Assembly (NCBI GenBank): GCA_040879385.1
Contig: JBBDKM010000062.1
Span: 4,707-68,706, forward strand
DNA from: Thermoanaerobaculia bacterium
GTDB taxonomy: Bacteria; Acidobacteriota; Thermoanaerobaculia; UBA5066; Gp7-AA6
Direction: 5' to 3'
Length of the DNA: 64,000 nt
Under the pieces are notes generated by a model, which had not been told where the DNA came from, searched no databases, and worked only from the letters and a program-made list of their open reading frames with translations. Made by a program: the position numbers and the translations under genes. Positions 1-57,839 of the stretch are shown piece by piece. How positions within the stretch are numbered: the first letter of the stretch is position 1; every line of letters begins with the position of its first letter.

Positions 1-1300
1 CGCCCTCGGCCGCGGCCAGGTGGCCGATGGAATAGGACATCGGGACCTTGTCGATGACTTCCCAGGTGCCGAGCTTCCACTTCGCGATCGCGCTGTCGAC
101 GAAGAGCGAGGTGTAGCACTCGCCATTCAGGCCGAACTGCGTGTGGAGCGGACCCAGCCCCACCGGGACCTCGGCGTCCTTGACCGACTCGTACTTCAGG
201 ATCGGAATGCCGTCCTCGTCTCCCGTGAAGTCCTTGTTGCGGATCGCGGTCTGGATCTTCTCGAAGTTGAAGACGGTCGTCACGCCCTGGAGCTTGCCCG
301 AGCCGACGATGTATTTGCCGTCGGGTGAGACGTCGACGCCGTGCGGCGACTTGCCGCAGGGGATCAGGTAGACGAGGCCCGGGACTTTCTTCGGGTCGAT
401 GACCCGGACGCCGCCGATCAGGTCCCCCTTGCCCTCGGCGACGGCCTTCTCGACCGCCCGCCAGTCCACCGCCGCGATGTAGTCGCGGTCACGCTGCGAA
501 GCCGTGACCTCGAGCTTTCCGGTAGCGCGTTCGGAGTTGTAGCAGCTCCAGAACATCCATCCGTCCGAGGCCTTCTTGCCGGCGTCGCCCAGATCCCAGT
601 CGAATGGTGGCGTCATGATCTCCCAGCCGAGCGACATCTCGCCCGACCTCGGATCGATCTTGATACCGACGAGGACACCCTTGTATTTGGTGGCGTAGTC
701 TTCGATCCCGGCGGCCGTGCCTTTCGGAATCGGGATCGAAAAACGAGAGGCCATCATCGAGTACTCGGTGTTGGGCGTGACGAAGGCCGAGCCGTGGTTA
801 CCCGAGAGGTTGGCGATCGGGCCGAGGATCTGCTTGGTCTTGAAGTCGCGCAGATCCACCCGCGCGACACGGCCGTTCATGTCGTTGACGAAGAGCCAGC
901 GTCCGTCGTAGTCGCCGTTGGTCTCCGAAAGCGACGGATGATGGACATCGCCCCAGGTCAGGTTGCCGAGCATCGCCTTCGACTCGTCGTCGAAGCCGTA
1001 GCCGGTGGCCGGGTAGGGCGTGTAGACCGGGATCGTCGAGAGGTGCCGCATGGAAGGAATTCCGTACACGTAAACGTTTCCGGAGTGGCCTCCGGAAGCG
1101 AACATGTAGTACTCGTCGAGGTCTCCGGGCGCTACGTAGACCTTCCCGGCCGCGACGGCCATGTCGGATGCTCCGGCCGGGCCTCCCTTCTTCGCCCCGG
1201 CCTTGGGCGCGCTCGGCGCGCATCGGCCGGCGAGCGCGATCAGGATCGCGAAGACCGCGGCCGCGCCCAGGGTGATGAACTTCTTCGAGGGACTGCTCAT
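1..1300 (-). CDS. nosZ: Nitrous oxide reductase, clade II (Sec-type); 3' end beyond window edge
   Basis: Not in the ORF track. My translation from the ATG at 1300 (RBS GGAGG) gives MSSPSKKFITLG...VYVAPGDLDEYYMFASGGHSGNVYVYGIPSMRHLSTIPV...WGDVHHPSLSETNGDYDGRWLFVND, typical of clade II NosZ. No twin-arginine signal. Confidence 0.95.
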   Translation of the reverse strand, partial: MSSPSKKFITLGAAAVFAILIALAGRCAPSAPKAGAKKGGPAGASDMAVAAGKVYVAPGDLDEYYMFASGGHSGNVYVYGIPSMRHLSTIPVYTPYPATGYGFDDESKAMLGNLTWGDVHHPSLSETNGDYDGRWLFVNDMNGRVARVDLRDFKTKQILGPIANLSGNHGSAFVTPNTEYSMMASRFSIPIPKGTAAGIEDYATKYKGVLVGIKIDPRSGEMSLGWEIMTPPFDWDLGDAGKKASDGWMFWSCYNSERATGKLEVTASQRDRDYIAAVDWRAVEKAVAEGKGDLIGGVRVIDPKKVPGLVYLIPCGKSPHGVDVSPDGKYIVGSGKLQGVTTVFNFEKIQTAIRNKDFTGDEDGIPILKYESVKDAEVPVGLGPLHTQFGLNGECYTSLFVDSAIAKWKLGTWEVIDKVPMSYSIGHLAAAEG

Positions 1301-1311
1301 GGAATCCTCCT

Positions 1312-55650: not shown

Positions 55651-56319
55651 GTGCCCCGTCCTCCCGGTCGCTCGAGGCGCGCCGCGCGCCTCGCCTGGCT
55701 GTCGCGGGCGCTCTACGATCCCGAGCTTTCGGCCGGGCAGCCCTTCGAGACCGGAGGGGACCGCGCGCTAGAGAGGCTGGAGCGAGAGCGCGCCGCCGCG
55801 GCCCTCGGTCGGCTCGCCTCCGAGTACCGGAGGATCTTCGGGCACACGCCGGGCGGGCCCTGCCCCCTGTACGAGCTGTCGTGGCTTCGGGCCGGAGACT
55901 TTGCCGCCGAGCAGGAGCTGTCCGACATTGGCGCCTTCTACCGGGCCTTCGCCGTGCAGCTGTCTGCATCGGCGCGCGAGAGGATCGACCACGCGGCCCT
56001 GGAGCTGGAGTTCCTCGCCTACGCGGCGCACCTGGAGGCGAGGGCCGCGGCGGAGGCAGACGCGGAGAGGGTTGCGGTCGCGCGAGAGGCGCAGCGTTCG
56101 TTCCTGCGCGACCATTTTGGCCGCTGGGCGCCGCCTTTCTTCGAACGGATGGAGGAGCGCGCTCCGGAGGGGTTCTACCGGAGCGCCGCGCGGTGGGCGC
56201 GCGCGGAGCTGCCGAGGATCTTCGCCGACCTCGACGTCGAGCCGGCGGTCCACGTCGGGGAGCCCGCCGCGCGCGCCGTCCGCGAGTCGGAAGAACCGGA
56301 GGAGGTCCCGACACCATGA
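55651..56319 (+). CDS. TorD/DmsD-family maturation chaperone (5' end possibly frameshifted)
   Basis: CPLYE, DIGAFYRAF, ERIDHAALELEFL, FLRDHFGRW. Confidence 0.82.
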   Translation: MPRPPGRSRRAARLAWLSRALYDPELSAGQPFETGGDRALERLERERAAAALGRLASEYRRIFGHTPGGPCPLYELSWLRAGDFAAEQELSDIGAFYRAFAVQLSASARERIDHAALELEFLAYAAHLEARAAAEADAERVAVAREAQRSFLRDHFGRWAPPFFERMEERAPEGFYRSAARWARAELPRIFADLDVEPAVHVGEPAARAVRESEEPEEVPTP

Positions 56320-57839
56320 AGCGATTCGCCCGATTCGGATTGGCCATCGCGCCGCCGCTCGCCGCGGCTGCCCTCTTCGCGCAGACGCCGGGGCGCCCGG
56401 TCCCGGCGCCGGAGCGGGGAAAGGCGCTCTTCGACACGCACTGCGCGGTCTGCCACGGCTCTGCCGGCAAGGGCGATGGACCGGCCGCCTACCTGCTCTC
56501 GCCGCGCGCCCGCGACTTCAACCGCGGCTCCTTCAAAGTTCGCTCGACGGCGACCGGTTCGCTTCCGACCGACGAGGATCTCTTCCGGACGGTCACGCGC
56601 GGGATGCCGGGAACGCCGATGCCCTCGTGGGAGCACCTGCCGGAGGCGGACCGCTGGGCCCTCGTCGACACCGTCAAGGCTTTCTCGCCGCGATTCAAGG
56701 AGGAAGGGCCGGGCGAGGCGCTTGCCGTTCCCGATCCTCCGACCCATCTCGACCAGCTTGCCGCGGCGGGGAAGGCCGCTTTCGAGAAATACCGGTGCGG
56801 CGAATGCCACGGCGCGGCGGGTCGCGGAGACGGCCCCTCCTCGGCGACGCTCAAGGACGACACGGGCTTTCCGATCCGCCCGTACGACTTCACCCGGCCC
56901 GGGCGCTACAAGGGCGGCGACGCGCCCAAAGACATCTACCGCACGTTCACGACCGGGTTCGACGGAACGCCGATGCCTTCGTTCGCCTACGCGATCCCGG
57001 AGGAGGACCGCTGGTCGATCGTGGCCTACGTGCGCGGCCTCTCCACACCGGAGCCGGCCGCGAAGAGTCTCGCGCCCGGAAGCGTCCTTGCGGCGCAGAG
57101 GGTTTCCTCCGTTGCGACCGAGCCCGACGCCCCGGCGTGGGAGAAGGCGGGCGAGTTCGAGATCCCGATGCGCCAGCTTTGGGGCCGCGAGAACGCGGTC
57201 GGCCGCGTACGCGTCGCCGTGGCGACCGACGGCAAGAAGGTCGCGATCCGGATGCGCTGGGCCGACGCGACGCTGGATGTCCGGATGCTGCGGCCGGAAG
57301 AGTTCCGCGACGCGGCGGCGGTCCAGTTCTCGCCTGCCGGTCCCGACGTCACGTTCGCCATGGGAGAGCGCGGCAAGCCGGTCGCCATCTGGCACTGGAA
57401 GGCGGACTGGCAGCGCGACCTCGCCGGCCGGGAGGACGTCGAGACGGCCGAGCCAGCGCTGGTCGTGGACCTCTATCCCTTCGCGCGTGGGAAAGGGACG
57501 GCCGATCAGGACCCGGCGTATCTGACGGGCCTCGCGGCCGGGAACGCCTTCTCGAAGCTCGGGCGCAAGAGTCCCGTCGAGAACCTCGTGGCCGCCGGCG
57601 TTGGCTCCCTGACGCCGCTGCCGTCCTCCTCCCAGAACGTCGGAGGCAAAGGGGTCTGGGCCGCCAACGAGTGGAAGGTTGTCTTCGTGCGGAGCCTCGA
57701 GCCGGCGGGCGAGGGGGACGTGCGGCTTTTCGACGGCGTGCCGATCGCCTTTGCTGTCTGGAACGGGAGCGAGGGGGATCGCAACGGGATCAAGGCCTTC
57801 TCCACCTGGTACCGGCTCGGCCTGCCGCCCCGGAAGTAG
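56316..57839 (+). CDS. Diheme cytochrome c fused to an EbdC/NxrC-like heme-b (DOMON-type) domain; candidate gamma subunit
   Basis: Signal peptide; CAVCH and CGECH with GTPMP; then RWADAT, DAAAVQF, IWHWKA, AFAVWNG..GDRNG. Confidence 0.82.
   Translation: MKRFARFGLAIAPPLAAAALFAQTPGRPVPAPERGKALFDTHCAVCHGSAGKGDGPAAYLLSPRARDFNRGSFKVRSTATGSLPTDEDLFRTVTRGMPGTPMPSWEHLPEADRWALVDTVKAFSPRFKEEGPGEALAVPDPPTHLDQLAAAGKAAFEKYRCGECHGAAGRGDGPSSATLKDDTGFPIRPYDFTRPGRYKGGDAPKDIYRTFTTGFDGTPMPSFAYAIPEEDRWSIVAYVRGLSTPEPAAKSLAPGSVLAAQRVSSVATEPDAPAWEKAGEFEIPMRQLWGRENAVGRVRVAVATDGKKVAIRMRWADATLDVRMLRPEEFRDAAAVQFSPAGPDVTFAMGERGKPVAIWHWKADWQRDLAGREDVETAEPALVVDLYPFARGKGTADQDPAYLTGLAAGNAFSKLGRKSPVENLVAAGVGSLTPLPSSSQNVGGKGVWAANEWKVVFVRSLEPAGEGDVRLFDGVPIAFAVWNGSEGDRNGIKAFSTWYRLGLPPRK

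What the first reader, a model, noticed from the sequence alone, without database searches (positions are those of the whole stretch)
1..57839. One co-regulated island joins periplasmic NXR-type enzyme, clade II NosZ, two porin-cytochrome conduits and two quinone-coupled complexes
Seen: nosZ with its own Rieske/cyt b complex, an MtrAB pair, MtrCAB with ImcH/CbcL-like genes, a Qrc/ACIII-like operon and an nxrAB(C)-like operon within 58 kb. About 72 heme-c motifs are present, the same two palindromes occur upstream of most modules, and no nirS/nirK/nor/nrfA gene is in the window. Known: these modules are usually described in different guilds (nitrite oxidisers and anammox, N2O reducers, metal reducers and oxidisers). 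E0' is about +0.42 V for NO3-/NO2- and about +1.35 V for N2O/N2. Inference: this could be a modular chain that reduces nitrate and N2O with electrons from Fe(II), humics or electrodes, leaving the nitrite-to-N2O step to abiotic chemodenitrification. More speculatively, it could oxidise nitrite with N2O as acceptor.
Basis: partly seen in the sequence, partly recalled or inferred. Interest (0 to 1): 0.9.

Follow-up and report, generated by a model that had tools for sequence, protein, structure and literature searches.

The report
Mosaic anaerobic respiration gene neighbourhood
A sediment bacterium, probably an acidobacterium, keeps its nitrous-oxide reductase, metal-respiration conduits and a horizontally acquired nitrite/nitrate oxidoreductase side by side and partly under shared control sites, but every part is of a known kind and the genome also has an ordinary enzyme that turns nitrite into ammonium.

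Summary
All named modules are in the window: a Sec-type (clade II) nosZ with Rieske/cyt b/cyt c, an MtrAB pair, an OmcA/MtrC–MtrA–porin set with NrfH-like, 11-haem and FdnI-like genes, an ACIII/Qrc-hybrid operon, and a Kuenenia-like periplasmic NxrABC. There are 72 CXXCH motifs. Two palindromes are far above chance.

It is a mosaic, not one pathway. The nos cluster and the MtrC conduit occur in many same-genus genomes. MtrAB matched in only 1 of 40 same-genus genomes, weakly. The ACIII-like plus NXR block was found in only 1 of 40, and NxrA's nearest relatives lie in other phyla, so both look like acquisitions.

Many palindrome copies come from duplication of one promoter cassette. One box also sits before the nxr operon, here and in the congener. 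The ACIII-like operon has none.

The genome shows no nirS, nirK, nor, narG or napA. It does have nrfHA and two A-type haem-copper oxidases, and no RuBisCO.

Most likely: nitrate to nitrite by NXR run as a reductase, nitrite to ammonium by NrfA, N2O scavenging by NosZ, and extracellular electron transfer. Fe(II)-driven or N2O-linked nitrite oxidation remains untested.

The parts
1..1315 (-). nosZ, N-terminal 438 aa. The gene runs on to contig position 4129, and nosD lies beyond it.
   Evidence: TIGR04246 592 bits against TIGR04244 241 bits. One search shows the CuA motif at the C-terminus and no RR in the signal. NosD scores 138 bits at C62:2445-2990.
1312..2550 (-). membrane-anchored c-type cytochrome with 5 CXXCH
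2552..3889 (-). cytochrome b
   Evidence: PF00033, 142 bits
3900..4400 (-). Rieske 2Fe-2S protein with a Tat signal
   Evidence: motifs CTHLGC and CPCHGS, RREFLL
4415..6358 (-). GltD-like NAD(P)H flavoprotein with Fe-S domains
6364..6603 (-). small HTH protein, first gene after the promoter cassette
   Evidence: sequence reading only
6641..6818 (.). promoter cassette copy 1: P1 at 6642, P2 at 6741, P1 at 6780
6810..7211 (+). truncated third copy of the radical-SAM gene (C-terminal 134 aa)
7251..9611 (-). MtrB/PioB-family porin
   Evidence: A match was found in 1 of 40 same-genus genomes, at 32% identity.
9624..10583 (-). DmsE/MtrA-family decahaem cytochrome
10638..10816 (.). promoter cassette copy 2: P2 at 10730, P1 at 10769
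10817..12088 (+). variant radical-SAM protein, paralogue 1
   Evidence: NF045502, 188 bits
12090..13583 (+). DsbA/thioredoxin-like protein
13607..13783 (.). promoter cassette copy 3: P1 at 13608, a P2-like site at 13712, P1 at 13746
13794..15038 (+). variant radical-SAM protein, paralogue 2 (82% identical to paralogue 1)
15046..15732 (-). Crp/Fnr-family regulator without an FNR-type N-terminal Cys cluster
15740..17563 (-). fusion membrane protein: ScdA_N + DUF1858 + NnrS/COX1-like
23342..24799 (-). NrfH/NapC-like multihaem quinol dehydrogenase candidate ('ImcH-like', not tested)
24858..25691 (-). FdnI/HydC-like b-type cytochrome
25694..26944 (-). periplasmic cytochrome with 11 CXXCH
27012..27299 (-). 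small monohaem cytochrome
27323..29284 (-). outer-membrane porin candidate of the second conduit
   Evidence: No family. The Atlas points to porin-like clusters.
29290..30210 (-). MtrA-like decahaem cytochrome
30253..32343 (-). OmcA/MtrC-family decahaem cytochrome
   Evidence: TIGR03507, 489 bits
34959..35970 (+). decayed copy of the nxr leader (with a P1 box at 34971) and of nxrA codons 1-98, holding one TGA
35807..37432 (+). PAS histidine kinase
37429..38808 (+). NtrC-type response regulator (read from the sequence, not scanned against a family library)
39002..40282 (+). class I c-type cytochrome with 4 CXXCH
40279..40803 (+). ActA-like pentahaem cytochrome
40826..43255 (+). Tat-exported QrcB/Psr-like molybdopterin-fold subunit; FS0 cysteines kept, the PsrA Mo-ligand Cys position reads Asp
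43259..43960 (+). 4Fe-4S subunit
43941..45287 (+). ActC-like NrfD quinone-site membrane subunit (start uncertain)
45280..46518 (+). class I c-type cytochrome with 4 CXXCH
46532..47107 (+). cytochrome c554-like protein
47446..48150 (+). DUF2249 + hemerythrin protein
   Evidence: In congeners this gene lies beside the nos cluster.
48224..48598 (.). nxr operon leader with P2 (48224) and P1 (48587)
   Evidence: P1 is kept in the G011 leader.
48652..50628 (+). three genes before nxrA: a CarboxypepD_reg-domain protein, a 323-aa protein of no family, and a small ferredoxin-like ORF
   Evidence: Relatives were found in 16, 44 and 5 of 80 NXR loci.
50642..54088 (+). NxrA with a Tat signal (RRQF)
54093..54356 (+). 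small conserved ORF between nxrA and nxrB
   Evidence: 64 of 80 loci
54353..55621 (+). NxrB
55651..56319 (+). NarJ/TorD-type chaperone
56316..57839 (+). NxrC: Sec signal, dihaem cytochrome c, and an EB_dh haem-b domain

Best explanation
The window is a real stretch of a 3.4-Mb, 68.5% G+C genome from a sediment bacterium that is probably an acidobacterium. It is a variable neighbourhood where anaerobic respiration modules have accumulated. It is not one dedicated pathway.

**Two parts are widespread in the genus**
- A clade II nos cluster: nosZ with its own Rieske/cyt b/cyt c quinol-to-NosZ route, plus radical-SAM, DsbA-like, Crp/Fnr and NnrS-like genes. It is driven from a divergent ~170-bp control region that holds two Crp/Fnr-style palindromes.
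- An outward electron conduit: an NrfH-like and/or an 11-haem plus cyt b quinol oxidase, then MtrA-like, porin and MtrC.

**Two parts are recent additions**
- An MtrAB pair that landed inside a multiplied copy of the nos control cassette.
- A ~22-kb block holding a kinase/NtrC pair, an ACIII/Qrc-hybrid quinol:cytochrome c module with extra c cytochromes, and a horizontally acquired periplasmic NxrABC cassette.

**Inferred working**
- Under anoxia or N-oxide signals, the Crp/Fnr-type regulator switches on nos and nxr together.
- Menaquinol electrons pass through the ACIII-like complex and c cytochromes to NxrC, then NxrB, then NxrA. NXR here runs as the cell's only nitrate reductase.
- NrfHA, encoded elsewhere, reduces the nitrite to ammonium.
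- NosZ consumes N2O that leaks from this chemistry or from neighbours.
- The conduits serve Fe(III)/Mn(IV) or other extracellular acceptors.

**Shown:** gene identities, export signals, motif enrichment, distribution among relatives, and genome content.

**Inferred:** the direction of NXR, the ACIII-to-NXR link, which regulator binds which box, and the direction of the conduits.
For: **Identities:**

**Genus-wide parts**
- Window 1-6550 matches at about 82% nucleotide identity in seven same-genus genomes named. There it is followed directly by one rSAM, the DsbA-like gene and Crp+NnrS, for example G014:C7:371654-383541.
- Window 27.0-33.3 kb and 23.3-27.1 kb match at 69-82% in many same-genus genomes.

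**Additions**
- MtrB matched in 1 of 40 same-genus genomes, at 32% identity.
- NxrA matched in 1 of 24 same-genus genomes at 90%. In DNA terms, only G011 of 40 holds window 37.6-57.8 kb.
- G060, which is 95-96% identical in the flanks, lacks the block.

**NXR is foreign**
- The best relatives, at 64-75% identity, are Rokubacteria, Planctomycetota and Archangiaceae MAGs. 596 of 600 scanned stretches encode a relative.
- In the tree, G000+G011 sit inside a non-anammox Planctomycetota clade, apart from the other Acidobacteria MAG.

**Sole nitrate enzyme**
- No other NarG/NxrA-like match at E<=1e-20 exists in the genome.
- No NapA reaches the cut-off; the best match is 99 bits.

**Nitrite sink:** nrfH and nrfA lie on C30.

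**No denitrifying step found:** nirS gives only a 42-bit partial match, nirK at best 63 bits, and no NOR-like COX1 appears.

**Shared control**
- P1 precedes nxr in G000 and in G011.
- The 80 NXR loci of other lineages hold only 5 P1 cores in 1.37 Mb.

**ACIII-like subunit is probably not a reductase:** the FS0 cysteines are kept, but the position of PsrA Cys173 reads Asp (the role of that Cys is recalled).

**Precedents**
- The cultured nitrate reducer Thermogutta terrifontis has a deep-branching NarG next to a b/c1 complex, and NrfAH (PMC5673643, passages).
- PMC10732223 places that NarG in the NXR clade and calls Kuenenia NXR bidirectional (passages).
- Acidobacteriota MAGs with nosZ and DNRA but no full denitrification are reported in PMC11409646 (passage).
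Against: - Nothing in the sequence fixes the direction of NXR. True nitrite oxidisers (Nitrospinota) carry the same cassette, including the dihaem-NxrC fusion.
- Two A-type haem-copper oxidases could accept electrons from nitrite.
- The ACIII-to-NXR link rests on adjacency and joint presence in two related genomes only. None of the 80 other NXR loci has an ActA-like match, and only 1 has a weak NrfD match (30% identity) within the flanks held.
- nrfHA carries no P1 or P2 box in the 10 kb examined, so joint control of nitrate and nitrite reduction is not shown.
- No expression data were examined.
- The genome is 95.6% complete in 96 contigs, so a missing nir, nor, nar or nap gene cannot be excluded.
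- The phylum rests on weak evidence: 71% RpoC identity to one named Acidobacteria MAG, against 66% to a Rokubacteria MAG, and an Atlas taxon lead.
Confidence: 0.55

Rival explanations
1. Electrons taken up from Fe(II), reduced humics or a cathode enter through MtrAB and/or the MtrC conduit. They drive periplasmic nitrate reduction by NXR and N2O reduction by NosZ. The nitrite-to-N2O step is abiotic chemodenitrification by the Fe(II).
For: - MtrAB without an MtrC partner is the layout of the Pio/Mto-type pairs of Fe(II) oxidisers (recalled).
- The pair sits inside a duplicated copy of the nos control cassette, next to P2 and P1 boxes.
- No nirS, nirK or nor gene was found.
- The concept has a precedent: the citing sentence and reference entry for Onley 2018 in PMC13094547.
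Against: - nrfHA gives nitrite an enzymatic sink.
- The direction of porin-cytochrome conduits cannot be read from sequence.
- The P1 box that lies next to the minus-strand gene in cassette copy 1 is missing from the copy facing mtrA.
- Electrons passed directly from periplasmic cytochromes to periplasmic NXR or NosZ conserve no energy unless they first reach the quinone pool (inference).
- RuBisCO was not found, so lithoautotrophy by that route is not supported. Other CO2-fixation pathways were not searched.
- The MtrC conduit with its quinol oxidase genes is widespread in the genus and looks like an ordinary outward (reducing) conduit.
Confidence: 0.12
2. NXR works in its name-giving direction. 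The bacterium is a facultative, probably mixotrophic nitrite oxidiser that passes electrons from NxrC through c cytochromes to its aa3-type oxidases. The ACIII-like complex serves reverse electron flow to quinone.
For: - NxrA, NxrB and NxrC are full-length relatives of Kuenenia NXR.
- The same cassette with fused NxrC occurs in Nitrospinota MAGs.
- Two A-type oxidases are present.
- The authors of PMC10732223 favoured an NxrA role for this clade in MAGs that hold oxygen reductases (passage).
Against: - The nxr leader carries the same P1/P2 boxes as the N2O-reductase operon. That points to expression together with anaerobic respiration (inference).
- No RuBisCO was found.
- The trait is in 1 of 24 same-genus genomes searched with the protein, in a genus otherwise equipped with nosZ and metal-respiration conduits.
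- No other nitrate reductase was found that could explain nitrate use.
Confidence: 0.15
3. Nitrite oxidation by NXR is coupled to N2O reduction by NosZ as an energy metabolism.
For: - Both enzymes are encoded on one contig and share the P1/P2 boxes.
Against: - Both enzymes are periplasmic: NxrA has a Tat signal, and NxrC and NosZ have Sec-type signals.
- Protons released by nitrite oxidation and consumed by N2O reduction would therefore be on the same side, and no coupling site lies between them (inference).
- I know of no organism with this metabolism (recalled; no search was aimed at this).
Confidence: 0.02
4. The juxtaposition is an assembly or binning artefact.
For: - The genome is a 96-contig assembly.
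- The cassette repeats at 6.7 and 10.7 kb share an identical 70-bp piece at which the contigs of runs X1-X3 break. No single contig bridges it.
Against: - Both flanks of the contig match same-genus genomes at 70-96% identity.
- The pieces on either side of the repeats have equal depth in three runs: about 38-40, 31-34 and 44-50. The shared 70-bp piece has about twice that depth in the two runs where it was listed (X1, X3), as two copies in one genome would give. These runs may be the source data, so they are not independent.
- The MtrAB piece is flanked by the repeat on both sides, so the only linear path through all pieces is the one assembled (inference).
- G011 independently holds NtrC through the ACIII-like operon, the ACIII-like operon through hemerythrin, and the nxr cassette.
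Confidence: 0.03

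Closest known systems
Periplasmic NXR of anammox bacteria, Nitrospira and Nitrospina (Kuenenia NXR structure 7b04)
   Same: - NxrA aligns over its full length (1850 bits), NxrB scores 615 bits, and the haem-b EB_dh domain of NxrC 93 bits.
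- NxrA has a Tat signal, and a NarJ-type chaperone is present.
- The small ORF between nxrA and nxrB is shared by 64 of 80 loci.
   Different: - The host is neither an anammox bacterium nor a known nitrite oxidiser.
- NxrC is fused to a dihaem cytochrome c (212 bits to 6h5l_B). In the Brocadiaceae loci that cytochrome is a separate gene about 5 kb away. The fusion is seen in 27 of 80 loci.
- The leader carries the host's nos-type boxes.
Thermogutta terrifontis nitrate respiration (NXR-clade NarGH beside a b/c1 complex, with NrfAH)
   Same: - An NXR-clade enzyme lies next to a quinol:cytochrome c module.
- NrfAH serves as the nitrite reductase.
- The organism is a cultured nitrate-to-ammonium reducer (PMC5673643 passages; clade placement from PMC10732223).
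   Different: - Here the neighbouring module is an ACIII/Qrc hybrid, not b/c1.
- No NarI-like subunit is present.
Planctomycetota and KSB1 MAGs from the Oslofjord tunnel (PMC10732223)
   Same: - Kuenenia-like NxrA occurs in non-anammox MAGs that also hold porin-cytochrome genes and oxygen reductases.
- NrfD-type membrane complexes were noted next to Nxr genes and next to a porin-cytochrome complex (passages).
   Different: - The phylum differs.
- No shared control sites and no nos linkage are described in the passages I read. Supplements are closed and may hold more.
Clade II nos clusters that depend on a Rieske/cytochrome bc complex (Wolinella succinogenes)
   Same: A Sec-type NosZ is encoded with its own Rieske and cyt b genes. 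For Hein 2017 I saw only the title, in the reference list of PMC11409646; its content is recalled.
   Different: - No NosG/H/C1/C2 genes were seen in the part of the cluster held.
- The operon also holds a GltD-like flavoprotein.
- Radical-SAM, DsbA-like and NnrS-fusion genes accompany it across the genus.
Alternative complex III and the Qrc complex
   Same: - ActA-like pentahaem (69 bits to 8k9e_A).
- ActC-like NrfD (232 bits to 6f0k_C).
- A Tat-exported molybdopterin-fold subunit with a separate 4Fe-4S subunit. Its best NCBIfam is QrcB.
   Different: - There is only one NrfD-type subunit and no ActD/E/F.
- The molybdopterin-fold subunit resembles ArrA and PsrA (about 200 bits) far more than ActB (37-52 bits).
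- QrcB scores below its cut-off.
Anaeromyxobacter dehalogenans: nir-less, with clade II nosZ, nrfA and iron reduction
   Same: The genotype is the same, and so is the chemodenitrification-plus-NosZ idea (reference entry and citing sentence; the rest is recalled).
   Different: - That organism reduces nitrate by a different enzyme (Nap or Nar is my recollection; not checked). Here the only candidate is NXR-type.
- The phylum differs.

Membership tests
Clade II (Sec-dependent) NosZ | Scores higher to the Sec-dependent model than to the Tat-dependent model | tested here: met
   TIGR04246 gives 592 bits for 438 of about 625 residues, just under the full-length cut-off of 625. TIGR04244 gives 241 bits.
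Clade II (Sec-dependent) NosZ | Signal peptide without a twin arginine | tested here: met
   The N-terminus was read and holds no RR.
Clade II (Sec-dependent) NosZ | CuA-binding C-terminal motif | tested here: met
   A C..x3..C..x3..H..x2..M stretch lies at the C-terminus of the full ORF on the contig. The CuZ histidines were not checked.
Periplasmic NXR (Nitrospira/Nitrospina/anammox type) | Alpha subunit homologous over its full length to a characterised periplasmic NxrA | tested here: met
   1850 bits, residues 1-1145 against 1-1146 of 7b04_B.
Periplasmic NXR (Nitrospira/Nitrospina/anammox type) | Tat signal on the alpha subunit (periplasmic active site) | tested here: met
   The N-terminus holds the RRQF motif.
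Periplasmic NXR (Nitrospira/Nitrospina/anammox type) | NxrB and a haem-b NxrC encoded alongside | tested here: met
   NxrB scores 615 bits to 7b04_A. The NxrC domain scores 93 bits to 7b04_C and 79 bits to PF09459. TIGR03477 gives 132 bits, below its 170 cut-off.
Periplasmic NXR (Nitrospira/Nitrospina/anammox type) | Oxidises nitrite in vivo | not testable with these tools
   Direction cannot be read from sequence. The clade also holds nitrate reducers (PMC10732223).
MtrAB/PioAB/MtoAB porin-cytochrome pair | An MtrB/PioB-family barrel next to a decahaem MtrA/DmsE-family cytochrome | tested here: met
   PF11854 gives 288 bits. TIGR03509 gives 217 bits, just below its 240 cut-off. TIGR03508 gives 250 bits, above 192. 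The cytochrome has 10 CXXCH, and the genes are 12 bp apart.
MtrCAB conduit | OmcA/MtrC-family outer cytochrome | tested here: met
   TIGR03507 gives 489 bits, above 209. PF22113 gives 181 bits.
MtrCAB conduit | MtrB-family porin | tested here: not met
   The 706-aa ORF matches no Pfam or NCBIfam family, and MtrB1 finds no second match in the genome at E<=1e-20. The Atlas places it with porin-like clusters, of which 10% of members in one carry PF11854. It probably works like a porin-cytochrome conduit, but it is not filed as MtrB.
Alternative complex III | ActA pentahaem and an ActC NrfD-type subunit | tested here: met
Alternative complex III | A second NrfD-like subunit (ActF), plus ActD and ActE | tested here: not met
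   The operon has one NrfD gene only. The other genes are class I and c554-type cytochromes.
Qrc complex | QrcB equivalog score | tested here: inconclusive
   NF041783 gives 276 bits, below its 440 cut-off, but it is the best family.
Psr/Phs/Arr-type molybdoenzymes | Cysteine ligand to Mo | tested here: not met
   In the alignment to 2vpw_A, chain position 173 (Cys) pairs with Asp in the query. The alignment to ArrA in this segment is uncertain. The role of Cys173 is recalled.
ImcH and CbcL inner-membrane cytochromes of Geobacter | Homology to the reference proteins | not tested
   No reference sequence was available. Only the NrfH-like domain (51 bits), the 11 CXXCH motifs and the FdnI-like cyt b were seen.

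The most novel reading that the evidence does not exclude
After horizontal acquisition, the NXR cassette was wired into the host's nos regulon through the shared P1/P2 boxes. An MtrAB pair of the Pio/Mto layout was also planted inside a duplicated nos control cassette. If both serve one purpose, this bacterium takes electrons from outside the cell (Fe(II), reduced humics, cathodes or partner cells) and spends them on periplasmic nitrate and N2O reduction. That would be an 'outside-in' N-oxide respiration not described for Acidobacteriota, with the NXR-type enzyme as its nitrate reductase.
Probability: 0.1. Interest if true: 0.75.

Novelty: new member of a known kind. Interest (0 to 1): 0.35.

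Why it matters
NXR-type genes are often scored as markers of nitrite oxidation in metagenomes. Here the cassette sits in a genome where no other nitrate reductase was found, which does carry nrfHA and nosZ, and its leader carries the same control boxes as the N2O reductase operon. That is a concrete, testable case that such cassettes can serve nitrate reduction in non-nitrifiers, and that they move between phyla: 596 of 600 scanned stretches in species-representative genomes encode a relative.

It also shows how a respiratory hot spot is built. One promoter cassette was multiplied, and foreign modules were inserted next to it. The nosZ-plus-DNRA genotype matters for N2O budgets because such organisms are net N2O sinks.

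Tried and rejected
- **Classic FNR box.** TTGAT-N4-ATCAA with one mismatch gave 2 matches against 0.33 expected. One lies in a coding region and one overlaps the start codon of the small cytochrome. I rejected it as the shared site.
- **Exact palindromes.** A scan for arms of 6-7 bases occurring at least three times found none. The boxes emerged only from reading the intergenic DNA.
- **P1 cores elsewhere in the genome.** Of the 5 outside the window, only C76:4640 lies between divergent genes. I took the others as chance.
- **nrfHA locus.** No P1 or P2 site, even in the loose form, in 10 kb.
- **PDB searches.** The CarboxypepD_reg protein and the 323-aa protein before nxrA found nothing.
- **tRNAs.** None in the window. 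I did not look for integrases or transposases.
- **Run X5 (a soil metagenome from another study).** Its contigs cover window 243-6193 and 14168-20000 at 95-99% identity, but there is almost no depth over 6.7-13.3 kb. No reliable contig joins across that part, so this is not used as evidence that a relative lacks MtrAB.
- **Tree.** The maximum-likelihood run did not finish in 300 s. The tree reported is FastTree with SH-like supports only, built from 81 rows: G000, G011 and 79 of the 80 loci, one locus being dropped by the script's length and stop filter.
- **Not searched in the genome.** Cytochrome bd, hcp, rTCA or Wood-Ljungdahl genes, and Cyc2.

Full report
**What is there**

The window is G000:C62:4707-68706, part of an 88-kb contig. 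The assembly has 3.41 Mb in 96 contigs, 68.5% G+C and 95.6% completeness. I called genes by third-position G+C and checked them against Pfam, NCBIfam and PDB sequences.

On the minus strand at the left end lies one operon:
- a small HTH gene;
- a GltD-like Fe-S flavoprotein;
- a Tat-exported Rieske protein;
- cytochrome b;
- a 5-CXXCH cytochrome c;
- nosZ.

nosZ continues beyond the window. On the contig it ends with a CuA motif and is followed by nosD. It is clade II: the Sec-dependent model TIGR04246 gives 592 bits on the 438 residues held, against 241 bits for the Tat model, and the signal has no twin arginine.

Moving right, the window holds:
- an MtrB/PioB porin and a DmsE-family decahaem cytochrome;
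- two 82%-identical variant radical-SAM genes with a DsbA-like gene between them;
- a Crp/Fnr regulator in one operon with a ScdA_N–DUF1858–NnrS-like fusion protein;
- a Pat-like acetyltransferase and a P-type ATPase;
- an NrfH/NapC-like cytochrome, an FdnI-like cytochrome b, an 11-CXXCH cytochrome and a small monohaem cytochrome;
- a 653-706-aa protein of no family that the Atlas groups with porin-like proteins;
- an MtrA-like decahaem and an OmcA/MtrC-family decahaem.

The right half holds:
- a Usp gene and a PAS-LuxR regulator;
- a PAS histidine kinase;
- an NtrC-type regulator, read from the sequence but not scanned;
- the ACIII/Qrc-like operon;
- a DUF2249-hemerythrin gene;
- the nxr operon.

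**The molybdoenzymes**

NxrA (1148 aa, Tat motif RRQF) aligns end to end with Kuenenia NxrA at 1850 bits. NxrB scores 615 bits.

The third subunit starts at 56316 behind a GGAGG site. It has a Sec-type signal, a dihaem cytochrome c part (212 bits to chain 6h5l_B) and the EB_dh haem-b domain (93 bits to Kuenenia NxrC). A NarJ-type chaperone lies between nxrB and nxrC, and a small ORF lies between nxrA and nxrB. The label 'periplasmic NXR-type' is therefore correct.

The other operon is a hybrid:
- Its pentahaem matches ACIII ActA.
- Its NrfD subunit matches ActC at 232 bits.
- Its Tat-exported molybdopterin-fold subunit is closest to QrcB in NCBIfam (276 bits, below the 440 cut-off). In the PDB it is closest to ArrA and PsrA (about 200 bits), against 37-52 bits for ActB.
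- It keeps the four FS0 cysteines. At the position of PsrA Cys173, which I recall as the Mo ligand, the alignment shows Asp.

I read this as an electron-transfer module rather than a Psr- or Arr-type reductase. This is an inference.

**Haem motifs**

All of them fall in called genes. Seventy are in twelve c-type cytochrome genes, counting the five in the ActA-like gene read. Two are in Fe-S proteins.

**The palindromes**

The classic FNR box is not enriched. Reading the intergenic DNA showed two other sites:
- P1, ATGACGCA-NN-TCAT. This is a TGAY-N4-RTCA box of Crp/Fnr style.
- P2, TGATGCGAACGCATCA-like. This is TGAT-N8-ATCA.

Their statistics:

| Site | Matches in window | Expected | Shuffles reaching it | Genome-wide |
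|---|---|---|---|---|
| P1 core | 7 | 0.07 | 0 of 100 | 7 of 12 in the window |
| P2 | 8 | 0.25 | 0 of 100 | 10 of 27 on this contig |

Part of this recurrence is copying. One ~170-bp cassette is present three times: at 6648-6818, at 10638-10807 (95% identical to the first) and at 13607-13783. Each is followed by a radical-SAM gene, and the first of these is truncated to its last 134 codons.

Independent occurrences remain:
- P2 at 48224 and P1 at 48587, ahead of the nxr operon.
- P1 at the same place in the nxr leader of the congener G011.
- P2 sites ahead of Usp, CBS and other genes to the right.

The 80 NXR loci of other lineages hold only 5 P1 cores in 1.37 Mb. The box is therefore a feature of this host and not of the cassette. 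The ACIII-like operon has neither box and follows its own kinase and regulator. The nrfHA locus has neither.

**How much is an island**

The contig belongs to its genus. Its right flank and the nos part match same-genus genomes at 70-96% identity.

Conserved parts:
- In seven congeners, window 1-6550 is followed directly by one radical-SAM gene, the DsbA-like gene and Crp plus the NnrS fusion (for example G014:C7:371654-383541).
- The MtrC conduit and its inner-membrane cytochromes also match in many congeners at 69-82%. There they are often tens of kilobases from the nos cluster, or on other contigs.

Variable parts:
- MtrB found a relative in 1 of 40 congeners, at 32% identity.
- NxrA was found in 1 of 24 congeners, at 90%.
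- The stretch from the NtrC gene to nxrC matched only in that same genome, G011, among 40.
- G060 is 95-96% identical in the flanks. It lacks the block and carries a different MtrAB-like pair after the Pat gene.
- A decayed copy of the nxr leader with the first 98 codons of nxrA (81% identical, one TGA) lies at 34959-35970.

The region is thus a hot spot of rearrangement.

NxrA's nearest relatives (64-75% identity) are in Rokubacteria, Planctomycetota, Archangiaceae, Nitrospinota, Chloroflexota and other MAGs. Of 600 stretches scanned, 596 encode a relative. In a FastTree of 81 sequences, G000 and G011 pair together. They sit next to an Archangiaceae MAG (support 80) inside a clade of non-anammox Planctomycetota (support 97-99). 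This is apart from the Brocadiaceae and from the only other Acidobacteria MAG.

Across the 80 loci:
- The dihaem-NxrC fusion occurs in 27.
- The small inter-AB ORF occurs in 64.
- The 323-aa upstream gene occurs in 44.
- None has Mtr genes or an ActA-like match, 1 has a weak (30%) NrfD match, and 1 has nosZ, within the flanks held.

**The rest of the genome**

| Function | Result |
|---|---|
| nirS | none; one 42-bit partial match |
| nirK | none; best 63 bits against a cut-off of 296 |
| NOR | none; COX1 finds two A-type oxidases and the NnrS-like gene only |
| NarG/NxrA | no second match at E<=1e-20 |
| NapA | none; best 99 bits |
| RuBisCO | none |
| nrfH, nrfA | present on C30; 456 bits to PF02335; NrfA has five CXXCH and NrfH four |

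For taxonomy, RpoC is 71% identical to that of a named Acidobacteria MAG, against 55-66% for Planctomycetota and Rokubacteria MAGs; for the Binatia and Archangiaceae MAGs it matched in two pieces, of 59-61% and 71-72%. The Atlas also points to Acidobacteriota. This is a lead, not a classification.

**Assembly**

Contigs from three runs of one sediment study, which may be the source data, cover window 1-20000 in pieces of equal depth. They break at the 70-bp piece shared by two cassette copies. That piece has about twice the depth in the two runs where it was listed. No contig bridges the repeat. The piece holding mtrAB is flanked by the repeat on both sides, so the assembled order is the only linear path through all pieces (inference).

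**Explanation**

I take the window as a mosaic anaerobic-respiration neighbourhood. The most economical physiology is:
- nitrate to nitrite by NXR run as a reductase, fed from quinol through the ACIII-like complex and the many c cytochromes;
- nitrite to ammonium by NrfHA;
- N2O reduction by NosZ through its own Rieske/cyt b route;
- extracellular electron transfer through the conduits.

Support comes from three points:
- No other nitrate reductase was found.
- The nos-type boxes precede nxr.
- There are published precedents. Thermogutta terrifontis reduces nitrate to ammonium with a deep-branching NarG beside a b/c1 complex (PMC5673643). PMC10732223 places that NarG in the NXR clade and calls Kuenenia NXR bidirectional. 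[quoted passage not shown]

The direction of NXR, the ACIII link, the regulator that binds the boxes and the direction of the conduits are all inferred.

Fe(II)- or electrode-driven N-oxide reduction is not excluded. The placement of mtrAB in a copy of the nos cassette is the best hint for it. However, nitrite has an enzymatic sink, and the P1 box nearest the minus-strand genes is missing from the copy facing mtrA. Direct periplasmic transfer would also conserve no energy.

Nitrite oxidation with N2O fails the same bioenergetic check, because both enzymes are periplasmic.

**Novelty**

Each module is a member of a known kind, and NXR-type cassettes in non-nitrifying MAGs are in print. I did not find this particular combination, or the shared boxes, described. 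The searches were made, seen as listings plus the passages named above. They do not amount to proof of absence.

Noticed in passing
window 34959-35970: A decayed, internally deleted copy of the nxr operon leader, with its P1 box, plus the first 98 codons of nxrA (81% identical, one TGA). It lies just before and overlaps the histidine kinase gene. It is a recombination scar.
   Followed up: partly
window 6648-7211, 10638-12088, 13607-15038: The unit of promoter cassette plus variant radical-SAM gene is present three times, once truncated. A fragment of the DsbA-like gene's 5' region (10558-10636, similar to 12173-12250) lies beside mtrA.
   Followed up: partly
window 15740-17563 (-): A 607-aa fusion of ScdA_N, DUF1858 and an NnrS/COX1-like 12-helix membrane domain, in one operon with the Crp/Fnr gene. 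The pair is conserved beside the nos cluster across the genus. Function unknown, presumably NO-related.
   Followed up: partly
window 10817-12088 and 12090-13583: A variant radical-SAM protein (NF045502) and a DsbA-like protein are conserved next to the clade II nos operon in same-genus genomes. They might serve NosZ or cytochrome maturation.
   Followed up: no
window 54093-54356 and 49388-50359: Two proteins of no known family travel with NXR cassettes: a small ORF between nxrA and nxrB (64 of 80 loci) and a 323-aa protein upstream of nxrA (44 of 80 loci). The larger one has no PDB, Pfam or NCBIfam match.
   Followed up: partly
window 33348-34821 and 60982-62182: Paralogous Usp plus PAS-LuxR gene pairs (76% nucleotide identity), each preceded by P2-type sites. 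Further P2 sites precede CBS and other small genes up to contig position 72780. Together they suggest a hypoxia-type regulon centred on this contig.
   Followed up: partly
G000:C30 (L100:3956-5374): NrfA has five CXXCH motifs and no CXXCK, so its active-site haem motif is the histidine variant.
   Followed up: no
G000:C35:15583-16935: A 1130-aa molybdoenzyme frame with one in-frame TGA, probably a selenocysteine formate dehydrogenase.
   Followed up: no
G000:C81:6946-9949: A second Pat-like acetyltransferase gene (79-82% nucleotide identity to window 17834-20791), preceded by a P2-like site at C81:6713.
   Followed up: no
L069 (Candidatus Fervidifonticultor MAG), 21109-22359: The only one of the 80 foreign NXR loci with a nosZ relative (46% identity) within 10 kb of nxr.
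   Followed up: no
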